A DNA stretch of 64,000 nucleotides from Octopus vulgaris (lineage: Eukaryota), in assembly GCA_951406725.2 (NCBI GenBank), contig OX597817.1:37758001-37822000 (forward strand), read 5' to 3'. Both the position numbers and the translations under genes were made by a program. Positions 8,629 to 56,570 of this stretch are shown piece after piece. The notes under the pieces are model-generated. The model worked only from the letters and a program-made list of their open reading frames with translations, was not told the DNA's origin and did no database searches. How positions within the stretch are numbered: position 1 is the first letter of the stretch; each line of letters begins with the position of its first letter.

Positions 8629-9862
8629 ACACACACACTTTTGCATACTTATCTTTATGTGTGTGTATTTTGCTTCATTTAAAGTATTAAGAGATTTATA
8701 AGTTTTTTTCTTCGAGATGTTCAAATACAAGTGAAGCTATAAATGATAGCTTATAACATATCAGGTAAAAATACCCTTTAGGCATTTTCTTTCTAAGGAG
8801 TATTTATGTATATTTAAGCATATATCTTTTTATACTCACATATACACACATATATGGACTCTTAGATGACTTACACACTTATAGATATGTGTGTGTGTGT
8901 GTGTGTGTGTATGTATCTGCCTCTCTTTCTCTCTACAAATATATATATATATATGCCCGCAGCAAGTTCTTAAAAATTTATCTTACTATTTTTATTCGTT
9001 GTTACTACGTTTATTCATACATTGTTACGAAAATTTAACCTTTTAGGCTACTTTCAAGCCTTCGCCATAACTTGATTTATCTTTCCTATCTCTCTCTCTA
9101 CAAAATTTAACCTTAGGCTACCTCAAGCCGTAATCCCATCTTTTCCCATCTTTCCGCCATTGGCGGTGCGCCCGCCCCCCCACCCCCACCACCAATACCG
9201 ATGAACACTGTTCTCACCCCACCACCAATACCGGTGAACACTGTTCTCACCCCCCACCACCAATACCAGTATACCCTGTTCTCACCATCTACACCGGATA
9301 CGCCTTACTCATCTACACCGGGTACGCCCTACTCCCTCCTCCTCCCCCCACTACCCCTTCTCCTCATATGCTTTCACTGTGAAAAGACAAGCTGCTAGCG
9401 CCATAGCTCATCAACTGCCCACCGATCTTACGCTTCCTCCTGACACTGCCTCATTCCGACCATCCCCTTTTAGTACCCTCCCGCCTCGTAATATCCTACG
9501 TTTTTATTTCTTAGGAACCTACACCAACCCTTCCTGCCATCGTTCCTCCTTACCCCAACCTTCCCCACTGGTTGCTCCCCTATATTACCCGCCTCAACTG
9601 GACCCCCCCTCCCCAACTCAACTCTAGAATATCTGTATTTCTTTCCTCTATCTAATTACGTTACTCAGTGACGATAACGAATGTCCACTGCTAACACCAG
9701 CTCCTGCCCACGGCGTGGTCAGGTTGGAAGAGAGATCAAAAGAAAAATACCACGAAAACTATCACCACCACTACAACCCTCCTCTTCTCAGGCGCCGAAT
9801 CCCCCCGTCCCCCCCACATCTCCTTCCCAGTTTTCAGAGTTGGCACTATCAATGTTGGTACA

Positions 9863-11890
9863 TTGACAGGCAAGTCTAGTGAGATTGTAGAGATGCTAGA
9901 GAGAAGACAGGTTGATGTATGCTGCATACAAGAGGTAAGATGGAGAGATGCTTCGGCTAGGGTCCTCACGGGCAAGGCACTTAGATACAAACTCTACTGG
10001 CAAGGTAACGCGGAAGGTGTAGGGGGTGTAGGCATTCTCCTTGCGGAGGAATGGGTGGATAAGGTCATAGAGGTTGTCAGGGTTTGTGATAGAGTGCTTA
10101 AGCTCAGGTTGGTCCTACAGAGTGGCACAGCTATGATTATCTCAGCCTATGCCCCACAAGCGGGACTACCAAATGATCAGAAGGACAACTTTTATGATAC
10201 CCTTCTGCAGGCTACTTCAAAGACTAGTAACAAGGACCTCATCTTTGTAGGTGGAGATTTTAATGGGCATGTTGGGCGGGAATCGGGTATCTTCACTGGG
10301 GTACATGGTGGCTATGGTATTGGCACCAGAAATGATGAGGGAACTAGACTGCTGGAATTCTGTGATGCATGTAACCTTTCAATCTGCAACACTAACTTCA
10401 AGAAGCCAGTCTGCCACCTTATAACTTATCAGTCAGGAGACTCCGCTAGCCAAATAGACTTCATCCTCACCAGACAACGGGATGCAGGGTTGCTCTTGAA
10501 TACAAAGACCCTCCCGGGTGAAGAATGTATCCCTCAGCATAGACTAATCATCAGTGACTTTAAGCTTGAGGCCAGAAGGACTCCAAGAAACAAACCAATC
10601 CAGAAAAGAAGGATTTGGAGGCTAAAGAACCCTTCGCATGGTCAGAAATTTAGGGACATACTCATCAAGAAATTTGATGAGAGGGAAGAGGAGCTTCAGA
10701 CGTCAGACATAGAAGGTAGCTGGGAATTCCTACGGGACAGCTTGTTGAGTGCCACAGACCAAGTTTGTGGATGGTGCAAAGTCCCTTCCAGACCTAGAAT
10801 TACGTGGTGGTGGAATAGTGCAGTAGATAAAGCCATCTGTGAAAAGAGACGGGCCTGGAAAGCCTGGAAGGATGGGGGCAGCAGGGAACTGTACCAAATA
10901 GCCAAAAGGGAGGCTGGGCGGCAGGTATACATTGCCAAAGATGTAGCAGAAAAGAAGAAGTTTGCCAATGTCCAGCGTCGCGAGGATCAAAGAGCTGAAG
11001 TATTTCGGATTGCCAGACAGTGTGTCAGAGAAAATAGCGATGTTATAGGAGAGAAATGTGTCCGCATGGATGATGGGGCACTTGCTTTTACTACTAGTGA
11101 AAAGAAAGAGGCTTGGAGAAGCCATTATGAAAGACTGCTGAATGAGGAGAATGAATGGGAGGAGGAGAGCCTGCCAAATGTTGACCCAGTAGAGGGACCA
11201 GCTACCCGAATAGACAGCTCCCTTGTAGATAAGGCAATTAAGGATATGAAACCAGGCAAAGCCCCTGGCCTATCAGGAATCACTGCTGAGATGCTTAAAA
11301 CAGCTGGCTATGTGGGCCATGCCATAGTCACCCGCATTGTAAACCAGGTAGTTCACAATGGAGCCATACCCAATGACTGGTGCAGCAGTACCATAGTCAA
11401 CTGCTACAAGGGTAAGGGTGATGCTCTAGATAGAAATAACTACAGAGGTATCAAACTGTTGGACCAGGTGATGAAGGTCTCAGAGAAGGTCATAACCAAT
11501 CTCTTTAGGGAGAGAATTTGTTTAGATGAAATGCAGTTCGGTTTTGTACCAGGTAGAAGCACCACTGATGCTATATTCCTGGTCCGACAACTGCAGGAGA
11601 AGTACCTAGCTAAAGATAAACCCCTCTACATAGCTTTTGTAGACTTGGAGAAAGCCTTTGACAGGGTTCCCCGTTCCCTTATCTGGTGGTCGATGCGGAA
11701 ACTGGAGATTGAAGAATGGCTAATAAGGGCTGTACAGGCTCTATACAGAGAGGCTGTCAGCAAGGTTAGGATTGGCAACGAATATAGTGAAGAATTCCGA
11801 GTAGAAGTAGGTGTGCACCAGGGCTCAGCCCTCAGTCCCCTTTTATTCATCATAGTCCTTCAGGCAATAACAGAGGAATTCAAAATGGGA
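9863..11890 (+). CDS. RTE ORF, APE endonuclease and N-terminal RT (frameshifted)
   Basis: GTINVGTL, CIQEVRW, SAYAPQ, GGDFNGHVG, QIDFIL, KAPG, NYRGIKLL, QFGF, FVDLEKAFD, GVHQGSALSP. Confidence 0.9.
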
Positions 11891-12981
11891 TGCCCTGGGA
11901 GCTCCTCTATGCCGATGACCTAGCTCTCATAGCAGAATCACTACCGGAACTAGAAGAGAAATTTCGGGTGTGGAAGCAAGGGTTGGAATCAAAGGGCCTT
12001 AGAATAAATGTAGCAAAGACCAAAGTATTAGTAAGCAGCAAGAGGTACTCAGCACACATCCCCTCGGGTAGGTGGCCCTGCTCAACCTGTAGGAAAGGTA
12101 CAGGTAGAAACTCCATAAGATGCACCCAATGTAAGTTATGGACACATAAGAGGTGCAGCAACATTAAAGGGAAATTAACAGATAAGATAGCTTTCATGTG
12201 CGGCAGATGCACAGGGACAATAGACACAACAGACACTCAGAAAACAGATTCCATCACACTCCAGGGAGAGAAACTAGAAGTAGTTGATAGTTTCCGCTAC
12301 CTGGGAGACCAAGTTAGTAGCGGAGGTGGATGCACAGAGAGTATCACCACTAGAATACGAATAGCCTGGGCAAAGTTCAGAAAGCTCCTACCCCTACTGG
12401 CAACAAAAGGTCTCTCCCTCAGAGCAAAAGGTAGATTGTATGATGCATGTGTGCGAACTGCCATGCTTCACGGTAATGAAACATGGGCTGTGACTGCAGA
12501 AGACATGCGTAGACTTGAAAGAAATGAAGCTAGCATGATCCGCTGGATGTGTAGTGTCAGTGTGCACGCAAAACAGAGTGTAAGTATCCTGAGAGAAATG
12601 CTGGATATAAGAAGCATCAGATGTGGTGTGCAAGAGCGACGCTTGCGATGGTATGGTCATGTGCTGCGGATGGATGAAGAGAGATGTGTGAAGAAGTGCC
12701 ACTCCCAAACAGTTGAAGGTATCAGGGGGAGAGGTAGACCCAGGAAGACATGGGATGAGGTGGTCAAGCATGACCTCAGAGCATTGGGCCTCACTGAGGC
12801 AATGGCGAAGGACCGAGATCTCTGGAGATATGCTGTGACTACAAAGACCCGGGCTGCTTTCTGCAGCAATTCCACATACCCCCTACCCATTCTAAGTACC
12901 CCGGATCCCCAAAGTACCCTGGATCCCCAAAGTACCCCGATCCCCAAAGTACCCCGGACCTCGTTGCCCCCGTGCCGCTGA
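11890..12981 (+). CDS. RTE ORF continuation: RT YADD, PHD-like finger, thumb
   Basis: PWELLYADDL; CSTC..CTQC..H..C..CGRC; FRYLG; RLRWYGHV; RGRGRPRKTW. One-base deletion at ~11892 (TGCCCTGG vs TGCCCCTGG in the second copy). Confidence 0.9.
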   Translation: MPWELLYADDLALIAESLPELEEKFRVWKQGLESKGLRINVAKTKVLVSSKRYSAHIPSGRWPCSTCRKGTGRNSIRCTQCKLWTHKRCSNIKGKLTDKIAFMCGRCTGTIDTTDTQKTDSITLQGEKLEVVDSFRYLGDQVSSGGGCTESITTRIRIAWAKFRKLLPLLATKGLSLRAKGRLYDACVRTAMLHGNETWAVTAEDMRRLERNEASMIRWMCSVSVHAKQSVSILREMLDIRSIRCGVQERRLRWYGHVLRMDEERCVKKCHSQTVEGIRGRGRPRKTWDEVVKHDLRALGLTEAMAKDRDLWRYAVTTKTRAAFCSNSTYPLPILSTPDPQSTLDPQSTPIPKVPRTSLPPCR

Positions 12982-23692: not shown

Positions 23693-24001
23693 TATATAGG
23701 AGAAGAAAATGGATATAATAACAATGGGAAACTCGTGGTTTTCGCTGGTATGCCTTTAATTTAATTTAATTTAATTAGATAACAAAGACATTGAATTAAA
23801 GGCATACCAGCAAAAACCACGGGATTCCCATTGTTATTATATCCATTTTCTTCTCCTATATAACTTAAACCACGGTTTACCAACCAAACCACCTGCTACC
23901 GTACAACCTTACAAAAGACTGTGCCTACCCAGGTAATAACCAGGAGCGACTTTGGATTTGATTATCCCTTAGAGGTATTAAACCCCTCTAACTAATACCT
24001 A

Positions 24002-24048: not shown

Positions 24049-24242
24049 GGTCCCGGGTTGAGTCGGGGTTAACCACAGTAAATAAGGTACTCAATACATA
24101 GCAGAGTAAATTAATTTATTTTATAGAAAGAGCTTCTACAGGACTAGAACTGTTTCATTCAAATGAAATCATCAGGAAGCTTCCTGATGATTTCATTTGA
24201 ATGAAACAGTTCTAGTCCTGTAGAAGCTCCTTCTATAAAATA
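24046..24242. repeat. (TA)n-flanked palindromic element: 63-bp arms, no spacer, ~70-bp one-sided extension
   Basis: 24117-24179 is the reverse complement of 24180-24242 with 1 mismatch; centre GGAAG|CTTCC. Confidence 0.92.
24178..24228 (+). ncRNA. Type-I hammerhead ribozyme motif (mirror copy on the - strand at 24131-24181)
   Basis: Stem I AGCTTC/GAAGCT; CTGATGA 24184-24190; short atypical stem II (TTC-attt-GAA); GAAA 24203-24206; stem III CAG/CTG; GTA site 24220-24222. Confidence 0.65.
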
Positions 24243-24300
24243 TATATATATATATATATACACTCACACAAATATACAAACATACATACATGTATGTTTG

Positions 24301-38195: not shown

Positions 38196-38678
38196 TGTAG
38201 GAGTGGCTGTGTGGTAAGTAGCTTGTTTACCAACCATATGGTTCTGGGTTCAGTCCCACTGTGTGGCACCTTGGGCAAGTGTCTTCTACTATAGCCTCAG
38301 GCTGACCAAAGCCTTGTGAGTGGATTTGGTAGATGGAAACTGAAAGAAGCCTGTCATATATATGTTATCAAGTGATGTTGGGGGGACAAACACAAACACA
38401 CAAACACACATCATCATCATCATCATGGAGAACGGACGTTAAACGATGATGATGATGATGATGATGTGTTTGTGTGTTTGTGTTTGTCCCCCCCCAACAT
38501 CACTTGACAACCGATGCTGATGTGTTTACATTCCCGTAACTTAGCAGTTCGGCGAAAGAGACCGATAGAATAAGTACTAGGCTTACAAAGAATAAGTCCT
38601 GGGGTCGATTTGCTCGACTAAAGGCGGTGCTCCAGCATGACCACAGTCACATGACTGAAACAAGTAAAAGAGAAAGAG
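38196..38678 (+). mobile_element. Family B SINE with an internal inverted duplication and RTE-tail stub
   Basis: Head 38196-38360; inverted arms ~38364-38425 and ~38447-38511; tail to 38678. Confidence 0.85.
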
Positions 38679-41550: not shown

Positions 41551-43460
41551 GTGGATCTTTTCGCGGGCGCTTGTCAGCGTGCATTGGAGCGGTTCAACTT
41601 CTCCAGGCGCCAACGCCGCCTCAACATCTCCCCGGCTGAGCTCTTGGCTCTTCGTTCCCTCCAACGGCGCGCTGACATTATCATCAAACCGGCTGACAAG
41701 GGTGGAGCTGTAGTGGTGTGGCGCGCGGACCTCTATAGGGCCGAGGCTTTCCGCCAACTCAATGACACCTCCTTCTATTCCCCTCTGCCCTCTAACCCCA
41801 CACGTAGCTACCAACAGACGGTATCCTCTACTGTCCAAGACCTCATCTCGTCCTCCCGTCTCCCCCGCACCGCATCCAACCTAATTGTGCGAACCCCACG
41901 TACCCCCACCATTTACTTCCTCCCCAAAATCCACAAACCCAACAACCCTGGCCGCCCCATCGTCTCCGCCTGTAACTGCCCCACGGAGCTCATCTCTAAA
42001 TACCTCGACCGTGTCCTTGCCCCCTAGTGGCATCTCTTCCCTCCCACATCCACGATACCAACCATGCTCTCCGGCTTTTCAACTCTTTCTCCTTTCCTCC
42101 CGGCTCCTCCAAAATCCTTTTTACTATGGACATCCAAAGCCTCTATACTGTTATCCCTCACCACGAAGGACTGCAGGCCCTTCGACACTTTCTTGACCTC
42201 CGCTCTAACCCTGTACCTGACACCTCCACACTCATTCGTCTGGCCGAACTTGTCCTTACTCTGAACTGCTTCTCGTTCGCGGGCGAGTTCTACCATCAGG
42301 TCTCGGGAGTGGCCATGGGAACGCGAATGGGCCCCAACTATGCGAACCTGTTCGTTGGCTATGTTGAGGCCCAAATATTCTCTAATTTCACTGGTCCCAC
42401 TCCTGAACTATATGGTCGTTATATTGACGACATTATCGGTGCCACCTCACTCTCCCGCGAACATCTAGATTCCTTCCTCTCTTTCGTCCAATCTTTCCAT
42501 CCAGCCCTCCACTTCACTTCCACTATCTCCAACACCTCTGTCTCCTTCCTCGACATTTCGGTTAGCATTCTTCACTCCACTCTTACCACCTCCATTCACT
42601 ACAAACACACAGACTCACACTCATACCTCAACTTCTCTTCCTCCCACCCAGAACACACCAAGCTTTCCATCCCCTATTCCCAATTCCTCCGTCTACGTAG
42701 GCTCTGTAGTGACGACCATGACTTTGAGACTCAGTCTCAACGTATGGCTCACCACTTCACCCTACGTGGATACCCCCTCACCACTATCCACACCGCCCTT
42801 GCCAGAGCACGGTCCGTGGACCGTGTATCTGCTCTCTCTCCCCGAACCCGCCCTGTAGTCTCCCGCCTCCCTTTTCCCCTCACTTACCACCCCACGACCC
42901 TACGTCTCCAACGCACCATTCTTCGAGCTTTCCGTCATCTCCAGTCCGACCCGTCCACTTCACACCTCTTCCCTAACCGACCCCTCCCCTCTTTCAAACG
43001 AGCCCACAACCTTCGAGACCTTTTGGTCCATAGCTCCTTCCCTGACCCTACCTCCCAACCCGGCTCGTTCCCCTGCTCCCGCCCACGTTGCCGCACTTGC
43101 CCTTACCTCTCCAACACCACCCGCCTCACTAGCACCCACCATCGACCCTATCCCATCATCCACTCCTTCACCTGCACCTCCAGCAATATTATCTATTGCA
43201 TCTCTTGCTCTCTCTGCAATTCCTTGTATATCGGACAAACGGGACGCCGCTTGGCTGACCGGTTCGCGGAACACCTTCGTGACATCCACCTTGCGAACGA
43301 CACACCGGTCTCACGCCATTTCCGCTCCACCGGTCACTCCTTGCAACACCTATCTGTGTTCGGTTTGTCCTTACACAGAGGCCATCCGGATTCCCGTTTG
43401 CACCGTGAGAACAGGAATTAATCTTCTCTCTTCGCTCTTATACGCCATTTGGTCTCAACT
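41551..43460 (+). pseudogene. PLE RT/GIY-YIG ORF with two frameshifts
   Basis: ORFs 41551-42027 and 42027-43421 join by a 1-nt shift at ~42025 (LAP-LVASLP); second shift at ~43408 restores EQELIFSL...GLN. Confidence 0.85.
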
Positions 43461-44304
43461 CTCCCCCCTCCTCATCTAACCCCCCTCTCCCCCTCCTCAC
43501 CTATCCTTTCTCCCCCGACCCCTACTTCTACAGTCCTTCATCCTTTCACCCCTACTCCCCTTCCCTTCTTCCCTCTTTCTCCCTCCCTCTTCCCCTTCCC
43601 TCTGCTCCCTCACTCCCTCTCTCCCTCTTTCCTCCTTCATCCCCCTCCTCCCCTTCCTTCTCCCCCATCCTCTCCTCTTCCCCCTTCTCCTCCCCCTCTT
43701 CTTCCCCTCGCCTTCTCTCCCCCTCTTCTCCCCCTCCCCCTCTTCTCCTCACTACACCACATGACTTTACACATCACATCACATATGATGTGCCATACTA
43801 ATACACACACCAACTAATACATACTAATACGTACTAATACATACCAGTACATACTAATACTTACACCAACCCTATACATACACACGTCCAGACCCCGCAT
43901 ACGCACTTATACTCTCTCACACACACACACACACACCTATACATACCAATACGTACTAATACATACTAATACATACTAATACATACACCAACCCCATACA
44001 TACGCACGTCCAGACCAATCTTACGCACTAATACTCTCTCATACACACACACACACACACACACACACCCTTATACATACTAATACATACACCAACCCTA
44101 TACATACACACATCCAGACCCCTCCCACGCACTTTTAGCTGGTCCCTCAACCCTTTTATCAACCCTATTATCTCCCCTTATTTCGCTCTCGCGTCTCATG
44201 TTTGATCTTTGACCTCTGGCCGAAATCAGATCGCCATGTTGATTCGTTAGCTACTGCACGCATTTTTTTCTCTCCTTCTTTCTGTGTTTTTCTCTCTCTG
44301 TGTA

Positions 44305-44342
44305 TCTTTCTGTTGAAGAGCGTAGGCTCGAAACGTTAAAGA
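44305..44342 (+). ncRNA. Minimal hammerhead variant in the PLE terminal repeat
   Basis: TCTTT CTGTTGA A GAGC-gtag-GCTC GAAA CGTT AAAGA: stems I and II intact, palindromic AACGTT in place of stem III, core A6 replaced by U. Confidence 0.65.
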
Positions 44343-44461
44343 CTTGTTTTATTTATATTTCCTGAGCGCCATACTAATACAATTGTTCGTTTGTTTTCCA
44401 CCTGCCTTCGTCTTTTGTTTATTTTCATAAAGCTTCCCGTTATATATATATATATATATAT

Positions 44462-49381: not shown

Positions 49382-49422
<41 letters not shown>

Positions 49423-49426
<4 letters not shown>

Positions 49427-49949
49427 AAATTGAGGATAAAATCTTTATAAGAAATTATCAGTAGTTAGCATGAAAAACCTCGTAAGAGAAAAAATCCGTA
49501 AATTTTTCCACTTTGAAAATATTTATTTGTATTATATAGAGGGTACTACTATTGATAGATACTGCACACTAGGAGGGACCCTTGCGGTCAAAACTACTAA
49601 AATAAACAAATTGTACCGAATGCAAAACTTCAAAGCAAGTCATTTAAAAAAAAATTTAGTTACATATCACCTGTGATTTCGCAATTAATGCAGAATATGC
49701 ATTCTATGCTCATCAGTGCAACAAACTCAAGACATATATGTCTTGTATATATATGTCTTGAGTTTGTTGCACTGATGAGCATAGAATGCATATTCTGCAT
49801 TAATTGCGAAATCACAGGTGATATGTAACTAAATTCTTTTTTAAATGACTTGCTTTGAAGTTTTGCATTCGGTACAATTTGTTTATTTTAGTAGTTTTGA
49901 CCGCAAGGTCCCTCTAGCGTGCGGTATCTATGAATAGTAGACCCTCTAC

Positions 49950-49955
<6 letters not shown>
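49423..49955. repeat. (TA)n-flanked fold-back element: ~210-bp inverted arms plus ~107-bp one-sided extension
   Basis: 49530-49739 vs 49749-49955 are reverse complements, near-identical in the inner ~150 bp. Confidence 0.92.
49766..49829 (+). ncRNA. Type-I hammerhead ribozyme (mirror copy on the - strand at ~49659-49722)
   Basis: Stem I GTTGCA/TGTAAC; CTGATGA 49772-49778; stem II GCA...TGC with inner AGAAT/ATTCT hairpin; GAAA 49808-49811; stem III TCAC/GTGA; ATA site 49821-49823. Confidence 0.8.
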
Positions 49956-49986
<31 letters not shown>

Positions 49987-50002
49987 TATATTATATATAT
50001 AG

Positions 50003-55421: not shown

Positions 55422-55432
55422 TGTATATATAG

Positions 55433-55825
55433 ATGTAACATATGGTATAATTATAAACAGGGCAAATTTTAGCCATTTATTGAGACTGAAAAAAATTATG
55501 GACAACCTTAATCAGTTTCGAATCTTATTGGGTTCTTATCAGAGGCGTCTGATAAGTCTCCAGAGAAACATGCAGCCAAACAAATGCAGCAGTTACTCTA
55601 TGAAAGGGTCCCTAATTTGCATACTGAAAGTGTTTAACACTCTATAAATACCAGTGGCCTGTCAACGGGGATCTTAGTCCACACAGTATCAAGCTATGAT
55701 ATAATAAATATGTAACATATGGTATAATTATAAACAAGGCAAATTTTATCATTTCTCTGCGGACTGAAAAAAATGAACAACCTTAATTGATTTTCGAACC
55801 TTATTGGGTTCTCATCAGAGGTGTC
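55433..55825 (-). mobile_element. Retrozyme-like unit: ~116-bp direct repeats, each ending in a hammerhead, period ~277 bp
   Basis: 55433-55549 vs 55710-55825; TA-flanked; non-coding. Confidence 0.7.
55777..55825 (-). ncRNA. Minimal type-I hammerhead ribozyme
   Basis: Minus strand GACACCT CTGATGA GAACC-caataa-GGTTC GAAA ATCAAT TA AGGTTGT: canonical core, 5-bp stem II, ACCT/AGGT stem I, very short stem III. Confidence 0.75.
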
Positions 55826-55837
55826 ATATATATATAT

Positions 55838-56570
55838 ACCTATCATATCACTGTCTTCTTTACCCGCATGTCTAGTAACGTCATTTATTTCATCTCCTGC
55901 TCTTTCTGTCCTTCTCTGTAGATTAGTCAAACAGGATGCCGTTTGGCTGACCAGTTTGGGGAGCACCTCCGAGACATTAGACTCTCTCCTCTCTTGCCTT
56001 GACACCTACTTCCTCTCTTCACTCTTACCCATGTTCTCCCTTCATCGATATCCCCCTCCATCTACATCCCACCCCATTCATCCCACTCTCACATACCCCA
56101 CCCCTACCCACTACATCCTCACCCCCCTCACACCACATTACGCACCACATCACACCACCACACACACACTAGCACTGATCTCTTTCCAGCACCCACACCA
56201 TCATCCACACACCCATACATTACAGACTCACACACTTACACATGCACACATCCACACGTCAAAGTCACTAGCTCCTATCCACATGCACATATTTACACAC
56301 TCTCACATACACACATGCACAGGTTTTATTATCTCCACTTCTTCCTAGCTCTCCTGTCTAACTACCTTTGCCCAGCCAGTCGCCATGATTGACTGCTAAC
56401 TCCAAAAGTGCTTTTTATTCTCTTTCTGTTTATTTCCTTGTGCTCCTTTCTGTTGAAGAGCATAGGCTCAAAACATAAAAGACTCTCACCTTCCTCAGCA
56501 TCAATCTATTACACCTGCTTGTTTTTTATACACCTGTGTTTTCGTCTTTTATTTTTCTGTAAATTTCAAC
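55838..56570 (+). mobile_element. Degenerate PLE 3' fragment (GIY-YIG remnant, C-rich UTR, terminal repeat)
   Basis: SSNVIYFISCSFCPSL*ISQTGCRLADQFGEHLRDI matches 43170-43290; CTGTTGAAGAGCATAGGCTCAAAAC at ~56450. Confidence 0.82.

What the first reader, a model, noticed from the sequence alone, without database searches (positions are those of the whole stretch)
49423..49955. Large fold-back element with a canonical hammerhead on each strand
Seen: (TA)n, 107-bp unique end, ~210-bp arm, TA-rich centre (itself a CAAGACATAT|ATGTCTTG palindrome), inverted arm, (TA)n. Each arm encodes a full type-I hammerhead (CUGAUGA, G-C closed stem II, GAAA, AUA site) pointing away from the centre. There is no coding capacity. 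Inference: a read-through transcript from either strand contains one ribozyme preceded by its antisense, so a ~200-bp hairpin would compete with the ribozyme fold. This could give self-silencing, a Dicer/ADAR substrate or a switch. Inverted ends with a one-sided extension match known PLE insertion geometry.
Basis: partly seen in the sequence, partly recalled or inferred. Interest (0 to 1): 0.75.

Follow-up and report, generated by a model that had tools for sequence, protein, structure and literature searches.

The report
Back-to-back hammerhead retrozyme insertion
This is one of hundreds of copies of a non-coding jumping repeat that carries a predicted self-cutting RNA; it sits in a TA microsatellite as two back-to-back partial copies, likely pasted in by a Penelope-type retrotransposon enzyme, so the fold-back is likely an insertion by-product and not a built-in switch.

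Summary
The fold-back and both type I hammerheads are real. They are two 5'-truncated copies of a ~494-bp non-coding tandem/dispersed repeat (a non-LTR retrozyme; 751 exact hits to one 20-mer), joined head to head inside (TA)n. The '107-bp unique end' is the family's tail between two fixed 3' ends, and the centre is element sequence with a 15-nt duplication. In a position-sampled set, 40 of 79 insertions are inverted; of those with both ends classifiable, 27 of 28 independent ones have one long and one short end. That is Penelope-like geometry and fits priming from both target strands at two fixed start sites. Hammerhead stems covary across three subfamilies. Only 1 of 79 insertions keeps both ribozymes, so the double hammerhead is not enriched; in a read-through transcript the hairpin (about -350 kcal/mol) wins outright, so no switch is predicted. 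No autonomous partner was found; cleavage and expression are untested. The scan had already noted this family on other DNA of this genome.

The parts
49385..49422 (.). (TA)19, left half of the microsatellite target
   Evidence: the same flank type at nearly all family ends
49424..49739 (-). Long arm: monomer positions 179-493 (numbering of natural copy L016:1814-2306), 5'-truncated, ending at the long (L) 3' end; subfamily A1
   Evidence: 6 substitutions and 1 gap in 316 columns from the A1 majority
49424..49529 (-). Tail, about 105 nt between the short (S) and long (L) 3' ends of the family; present on one arm only
49659..49722 (-). Type I hammerhead of the long arm; predicted cut after 49665 (AUA)
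   Evidence: identical to the + copy
49728..49760 (.). Head-to-head junction: 18-nt palindrome 49728-49745 and 15-nt-period duplication of ATATATGTCTTG; made of element sequence, not host (TA)n
49749..49955 (+). Short arm: monomer about 179-388, ending at the short (S) 3' end; subfamily A1
   Evidence: 1 substitution and 4 gaps in 212 columns from the A1 majority
49766..49829 (+). Type I hammerhead of the short arm; predicted cut after 49823 (AUA); palindromic stem III AUCACAGGUGAU
49954..49981 (.). (TA)14, right half of the microsatellite target

Best explanation
The element is a head-to-head pair of 5'-truncated copies of a ~494-bp non-coding, hammerhead-bearing repeat (a non-LTR retrozyme) inside a TA microsatellite, likely made in one insertion by a Penelope-like reverse transcriptase/endonuclease supplied in trans. 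Shown: the family, its tandem unit, its two fixed 3' ends about 105 nt apart (S and L), the one-L/one-S rule of inverted insertions, same-subfamily arms, locus-specific junctions, covarying hammerhead stems. Inferred: the enzyme nicks both strands of (TA)n, each 3'-OH primes reverse transcription at one of the two start sites on the element RNA, both cDNAs stop early, and their ends are joined at a short AT microhomology (here TATAT, with one slip that left the 15-nt duplication). The hammerhead likely serves the propagating RNA (monomer release or circle formation, probably as a dimer). At this locus both ribozymes are predicted to be locked in the hairpin in any read-through transcript; the double hammerhead is a chance result of both arms stopping 20 nt upstream of the ribozyme.
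For: Family: 751 exact hits to a 20-mer against 1 for the reversed control; tandem period 493 in L012, L016, L017, L019. Ends: among 79 insertions taken from the first 100 hits on contigs C1-C2, 39 are direct (20 L, 18 S, 1 other) and 40 inverted (31 L+S, 1 L+L, 0 S+S, 8 with an unclassified end); after merging 6 loci that share flanks into 2 events, 27 of 28, binomial p=1e-7 at 0.5. Score-selected sets agree: 23 of 24 in subfamily group A, 17 of 18 in B. Some inverted loci have non-overlapping arms (L197: 435-493 and 45-399; L203: 257-399 and 411-493), which self-copying cannot make. Arms of one locus differ by 3.4% (35 pairs) against 8.2% median to other loci. Eight symmetric fold-backs, eight different junctions. 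Hammerhead: 93.6% of cells paired, 9 of 20 pairs with two-sided changes across A, B and C, slid controls 18-41%. Hairpin -349/-351 kcal/mol, hammerhead pair probabilities 0.0. Intact RT+GIY-YIG elements (781-aa frames) exist in the genome. Papers: inverted 5'-truncated copy, one-sided tail and (TA)n targets (PMC8557442); two RT start sites, both strands cut and extended, predicted dimer (PMC11167929); head-to-head pLTRs with junction palindromes (PMC3846280); retrozymes as non-autonomous PLE derivatives (10.64898/2026.07.22.740005).
Against: No autonomous partner sharing sequence was found: a family profile hit none of 42 GIY-YIG loci except one nested family copy, and the 10 of 232 family loci with a PLE protein hit show no common contiguous arrangement. 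The tail is about 105 nt, not the 30-40 bp reported for PLEs. The nearest other locus is often as close to an arm as its partner arm, so same-molecule templating is not shown; L012 is a subfamily mosaic. No 5' end among 93 arms lies within 2 nt of the ribozyme cut and 48 of 93 read more than 15 nt across it, so ribozyme cleavage left no sharp trace. The isolated hammerhead fold (-11.9) is not the minimum-energy fold (-15.3 kcal/mol). Only 9 pairs of subfamily-level changes underlie the covariation (three lineages; pairs-with-change control 328/500), and the core and stem III were used as anchors to collect the sequences.
Confidence: 0.8

Rival explanations
1. Snap-back: one cDNA started at L, stopped at the self-complementary ATAT, folded back and was copied outwards until the TA-like S sequence annealed to the target. 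Same element and enzyme, but one priming event plus self-priming.
For: Both arms start at the same base (monomer 179) with a palindrome and short duplication at the junction; arm starts lie within 20 nt of each other in 9 of 15 inverted pairs, permutation p=0.005 (includes one duplicated locus and needs the motif in both arms); self-priming was proposed for Penelope junction palindromes (PMC3846280).
Against: Cannot produce loci whose arms do not overlap or where neither arm contains the other (L197, L203, L207, L254, L006); S is also used alone in 18 of 39 direct insertions. It could still hold for this one symmetric locus.
Confidence: 0.12
2. The fold-back is a selected regulatory unit: a ribozyme switch, or a hairpin kept to feed Dicer/ADAR and silence the family.
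For: A read-through transcript from either strand would be a ~210-bp near-perfect hairpin. An inverted junction of another family locus (L025 geometry) is bridged by contigs of three public runs whose RNA status is only guessed.
Against: Both ribozymes complete in 1 of 79 insertions, no more than the ~3.6 of 40 expected from 24 of 80 arms carrying one; young A1 copy about 2% from its majority; energy gap of over 300 kcal/mol leaves no second state; no host gene among 18 long frames scanned.
Confidence: 0.04
3. A DNA-level fold-back transposon or MITE amplified as a palindromic unit, or an inversion formed later by recombination.
For: Long inverted arms and TA flanks; four and two loci share identical junctions.
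Against: Those shared junctions come with shared flanks, so they are segmental copies; junctions otherwise differ at every locus; variable 5' truncation with fixed 3' ends and partial tandems point to reverse transcription.
Confidence: 0.02
4. Assembly or long-read fold-back artefact.
For: The short arm has three one-base deletions within about 40 nt, two of them in short runs, which could be consensus errors.
Against: Flanks are not mirror images; arms end at two different family-defined sites; the long arm carries its own substitutions; dozens of loci share the rule; one family junction is bridged in independent short-read contigs (sides 92 and 83 nt in X7 and X10).
Confidence: 0.02

Closest known systems
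Metazoan non-LTR retrozymes (PMC7229834; bioRxiv 10.64898/2026.07.22.740005)
   Same: Non-coding AT-rich unit with one type I hammerhead, as monomers and short tandems; palindromic stem III suggesting dimer action; co-occurs with autonomous PLEs.
   Different: Unit 494 bp (above the 150-450 bp of PMC7229834, inside the 51-972 bp of the preprint); half of insertions are inverted with two fixed 3' ends, which the passages and sections I read of those papers do not describe; long stem II (A and C subfamilies); no long arrays seen; RNA and circles untested.
EN+ Penelope-like elements (Penelope/Poseidon, Neptune, Naiad): inverted pLTR with one-sided tail (PMC8557442, PMC3846280, PMC11167929)
   Same: 5'-truncated partial tandems, inverted copy at the 5' end, tail at one end only, junction palindrome, (TA)n targets, two discrete 3' ends, hammerhead in the repeat.
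   Different: No RT or endonuclease frame; tail about 105 nt (about 118 in subfamily B) against 30-40 bp; no sequence link to an autonomous family found.
Non-autonomous Chlamys elements such as MRC1 (PMC8557442, passage)
   Same: Non-autonomous PLE derivatives making pLTRs and head-to-tail copies.
   Different: Those resemble their autonomous partners at the 3' end and are described for a clade said to lack canonical hammerheads; here the hammerhead is canonical and the partner is unidentified.
L1 twin priming (recalled, no call)
   Same: Both target strands prime on the element RNA, giving a head-to-head inversion.
   Different: In L1 the second site is variable and arms do not overlap; here both start sites are fixed and arms often overlap over hundreds of bases.

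Membership tests
Type I hammerhead ribozyme | Core CUGANGA, GAAA and NUH in type I order, stems I-III able to pair | tested here: met
   stems I and II show two-sided changes across subfamilies; stem III invariant but used as anchor
Type I hammerhead ribozyme | Match to a curated hammerhead covariance model | tested here: not met
   No Rfam match at gathering score; no hammerhead family among 28 hits at E<=10
Type I hammerhead ribozyme | Loop I-loop II tertiary contact | not tested
   Stem II is extended by an internal loop in A and C, a short tetraloop hairpin in B
Type I hammerhead ribozyme | Self-cleavage at the predicted site | not testable with these tools
   Monomer fold is not the minimum-energy fold; stem III self-duplex -11.2 against hairpin +0.4 kcal/mol suggests dimer action
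Non-LTR retrozyme | Tandem units with a type I hammerhead in two consecutive units | tested here: met
   L012 has two consecutive units with intact cores; L109 spans more than two units in subfamily B
Non-LTR retrozyme | No protein coding | tested here: met
   Sense frames <=67 codons; a 172-codon antisense frame in A1/A2 only, 4 synonymous to 10 non-synonymous codon changes, no Pfam or Atlas hit
Non-LTR retrozyme | No LTR, primer binding site or polypurine tract | not tested
   No dedicated scan; none is apparent in the monomer
Non-LTR retrozyme | Expressed as linear and circular monomer RNA | not testable with these tools
   Only contigs were available
Autonomous Penelope-like element | RT plus GIY-YIG open frame | tested here: not met
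   Tandem junctions join unit end to unit start directly
PLE-mobilised non-autonomous element | Inverted 5'-truncated copy with a tail at one end only | tested here: met
   27 of 28 independent classifiable inverted insertions; 17 of 18 in subfamily B
PLE-mobilised non-autonomous element | AT-rich or (TA)n target | tested here: met
PLE-mobilised non-autonomous element | Tail of 30-40 bp | tested here: not met
   About 105 nt in A, about 118 nt in B
PLE-mobilised non-autonomous element | Sequence similarity to the pLTR of an autonomous PLE | tested here: inconclusive
   None in 42 GIY-YIG loci (30 of 148 matches plus 12 longer stretches; 6136 candidates, 150 scored)
MITE or foldback DNA transposon | Fixed symmetric termini, amplified as one unit | tested here: not met
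   Asymmetric L/S ends and a different junction at each locus

The most novel reading that the evidence does not exclude
These retrozymes record in the genome how a Penelope-type enzyme dimer works: each insertion primes both target strands, one at each of two fixed internal start sites on the same multimeric or circular hammerhead RNA, which would explain the strict one-long/one-short rule, the same-subfamily arms and the correlated stop points. The 494-nt RNA, with its conserved UAGCGUG/CACGCUA helix enclosing the short site, would then be a minimal, protein-free substrate for dissecting PLE twin priming.
Probability: 0.4. Interest if true: 0.6.

Novelty: new member of a known kind. Interest (0 to 1): 0.35.

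Why it matters
The locus itself is an ordinary product of a busy repeat family. The family is useful because it ties two published ideas together with countable genomic evidence: retrozymes as non-autonomous Penelope derivatives, and Penelope reverse transcription starting at two internal sites. The near-absolute pairing of one long with one short end makes a testable prediction about a two-active-site integration step, an open point in PLE biology. It does not point to a new regulatory device.

Tried and rejected
Rfam: no hammerhead hit; the miRNA-family hits are generic hairpin matches far below gathering scores. Autonomous partner: GIY-YIG search, 42 loci, blastn, profile and tblastn, none linked; the Pfam family asked for is not in the library. 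Antisense frame of 172 codons: longer than shuffles (0 of 500 dinucleotide, 1 of 400 trinucleotide) but absent from A3, B and C, neutral-looking, without homologues; treated as chance. Pile-up of 5' ends at the ribozyme cut: 0 of 93 within 2 nt; second-pass ends in the 50 nt 3' of the cut were 7 of 20 (p=0.0014, zone chosen after seeing the data) but 4 of 22 (p=0.11) in other A loci and 1 of 23 (p=0.90) in B; not accepted. Homogenisation near the hairpin centre: the window has 7 of 8 differences in the outer 50 columns, and ten other fold-backs show 1.7% inner against 3.6% outer, but the outer part is twice as variable in all copies; not accepted. A 16-nt echo of the S end at 49982-49997 recurs at 0 of 13 other S ends; left as chance. 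Expression: no RNA holder listed; contigs cannot show ends or strand. The window's own junction is not covered in four laid runs, which is no evidence either way. The sigma-70 scan does not apply to an animal genome. Earlier notes by sequence: nothing. Not-in-print check: searches and term look-ups showed no description of inverted two-ended retrozyme insertions; subscription papers, Repbase/Dfam and all supplements were not seen and may name this family.

Full report
Observation. The structure is as described. Arms 49530-49739 and 49749-49955 align over about 212 columns with 5 substitutions and 3 gaps, the inner 160 nt being 99% complementary. Both arms carry the same 64-nt type I hammerhead pointing outward, with the predicted cut after 49823 on + and 49665 on -. 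A pattern scan finds none in 20 shuffled windows. Rfam does not recognise it.

What it is. The window lies in a 2.8-Gb animal genome, G000. The element belongs to a repeat family whose unit is 493-494 bp, seen as direct partial tandems in L012, L016, L017 and L019. One 20-mer has 751 exact hits, the reversed control 1. Numbered on natural copy L016:1814-2306, the window holds positions 179-493 on the minus strand and about 179-388 on the plus strand. The '107-bp unique end' is therefore the family's tail and the centre is the unit's own TATAT with a 15-nt duplication. Two sister families were found: B (459 bp) and C (about 500 bp), with about 100 and 80 mismatches to A. The window copy is of subfamily A1, 2% or less in substitutions from its majority.

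End rule. Nearly all copies end at one of two 3' sites, S (about 388) and L (493), running into (TA)n. For a sample not chosen by score I took the first 100 of the 751 hits (contigs C1 and C2), giving 79 insertions: 39 direct (20 L, 18 S, 1 other) and 40 inverted (31 L+S, 1 L+L, 0 S+S, 8 with an end that fits neither site). Six loci are segmental copies of two events, leaving 27 of 28 (p=1e-7). Score-selected sets give 23 of 24 in A and 17 of 18 in B (the first A query favoured L+S). Eight symmetric fold-backs, the window included, each have their own junction. Arms of one locus are closer to each other (3.4%, 35 pairs) than to the median other locus (8.2%), though often no closer than the nearest one. 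Arm starts lie within 20 nt in 9 of 15 pairs (p=0.005), yet several loci have arms that do not overlap.

Hammerhead. Across 27 selected copies of A, B and C, 93.6% of cells pair and 9 of 20 pairs change on both sides; slid controls pair 18-41%. These are few independent events, and the core and stem III were anchors. Stem III is a palindrome that is far more stable as a duplex (-11.2) than as a hairpin (+0.4 kcal/mol), like the dimer-acting amphibian motifs in PMC7229834. The lone motif misfolds slightly in prediction (-11.9 against -15.3). In the whole element the hairpin is -349 to -351 kcal/mol and all hammerhead pair probabilities are 0.0; only a transcript starting at the centre recovers stem I (0.15-0.50). 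A long-range helix UAGCGUG/CACGCUA enclosing the S site folds in one natural copy of each family.

Is the double hammerhead special? No. Both ribozymes are complete in 1 of 79 insertions; 24 of 80 inverted arms carry one, so about 3.6 of 40 would be expected (my arithmetic). Unrelated repeats form the same kind of fold-back (L069; window 24114-24245). Eighteen long frames of the window gave only retroelement domains, so no host transcript is known.

Mechanism. Shown: geometry, ends, subfamily concordance, covariation, lack of coding. Inferred: a PLE RT/GIY-YIG protein in trans cuts both strands of (TA)n and primes at S and L, and the two cDNAs are joined at a microhomology. This rests on PMC11167929 (two start sites that define the tail, both strands cut and extended, predicted dimer; parts 1-2 of 4 read), PMC8557442 (inverted truncated copy, one-sided 30-40-bp tail, (TA)n targets; 12 passages), PMC3846280 (head-to-head pLTRs, junction palindromes, self-priming proposal; 8 passages), PMC7229834 (12 passages) and bioRxiv 10.64898/2026.07.22.740005 (parts 1-3 of 5 and a term look-up; it found cleavage in 1 of 9 tested elements). 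Intact 781-aa RT+GIY-YIG elements are present (their assignment to the Neptune clade from the linker cysteines is my recall), but none shares sequence with the unit. Against a simple picture: the tail is three times the usual length, and 5' ends do not mark the ribozyme cut (0 of 93; 48 of 93 cross it; an excess just downstream did not replicate), so templates were uncut multimers or circles, which I could not tell apart.

Artefact. Flanks differ, arms end at different family sites, and an inverted junction matching L025 is bridged by contigs in three coded runs. The window's own junction was not confirmed outside the assembly, and its three one-base deletions could be consensus errors.

Comparison and verdict. 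It meets the tested sequence features of a non-LTR retrozyme and of a PLE-type insertion, fails those of an autonomous PLE and of a MITE, and its activity is untested. I did not find the inverted two-ended pattern described for retrozymes in searches; supplements and repeat databases were not seen. Earlier notes of this scan, read after my reading was fixed, describe what appears to be the same family in this genome and similar ones elsewhere; they are not independent support. New member of a known kind; interest 0.35.

Noticed in passing
window 24114-24245: A second, unrelated near-perfect fold-back (97%) ending in (TA)n, with a minimal hammerhead-like motif (CTGATGA...GAAA) on each arm and a GGAAGCTTCC centre.
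   Followed up: no
window 42000-44440: Penelope-like element: 473-aa frame with RT and weak GIY-YIG hits, minimal hammerhead-like motif at 44314, ending in (TA)n near 44440; a related end lies at 56454.
   Followed up: partly
window 9695-12981: Non-LTR retrotransposon with endonuclease and RT domains split over two frames, and a weak PHD-finger hit.
   Followed up: no
window 55427-55825, minus strand: Two copies, 277 bp apart and 85% alike, of another hammerhead-bearing repeat.
   Followed up: no
window 23693-23862 and 38364-38511: Two further palindromes of 150-170 bp, 88% complementary.
   Followed up: no
L033:1205-1720 (+), L052:1467-1982 (-): A 172-codon stop-free frame antisense to the hammerhead spans the whole unit in subfamilies A1 and A2; rare in shuffles but without sign of selection or homologues.
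   Followed up: yes
L069:115-590: Fold-back of another repeat family with a long-stem-II type I hammerhead on each arm, next to a PLE end.
   Followed up: no
L091-L096: Young PLE family with many intact 781-codon RT+GIY-YIG frames, an upstream frame of up to 479 codons and a variant TTGATAA hammerhead core.
   Followed up: partly
L025 (G000:C10, about 19,394,750-19,395,350): An inverted family locus whose junction and flank are bridged by contigs of three runs guessed to be RNA; its short arm lacks the hammerhead, so the ribozyme there is not covered by antisense.
   Followed up: no
L049, L053, L068: Copies of different subfamilies sit side by side, separated by TA runs, suggesting repeated insertion into the same microsatellites.
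   Followed up: no
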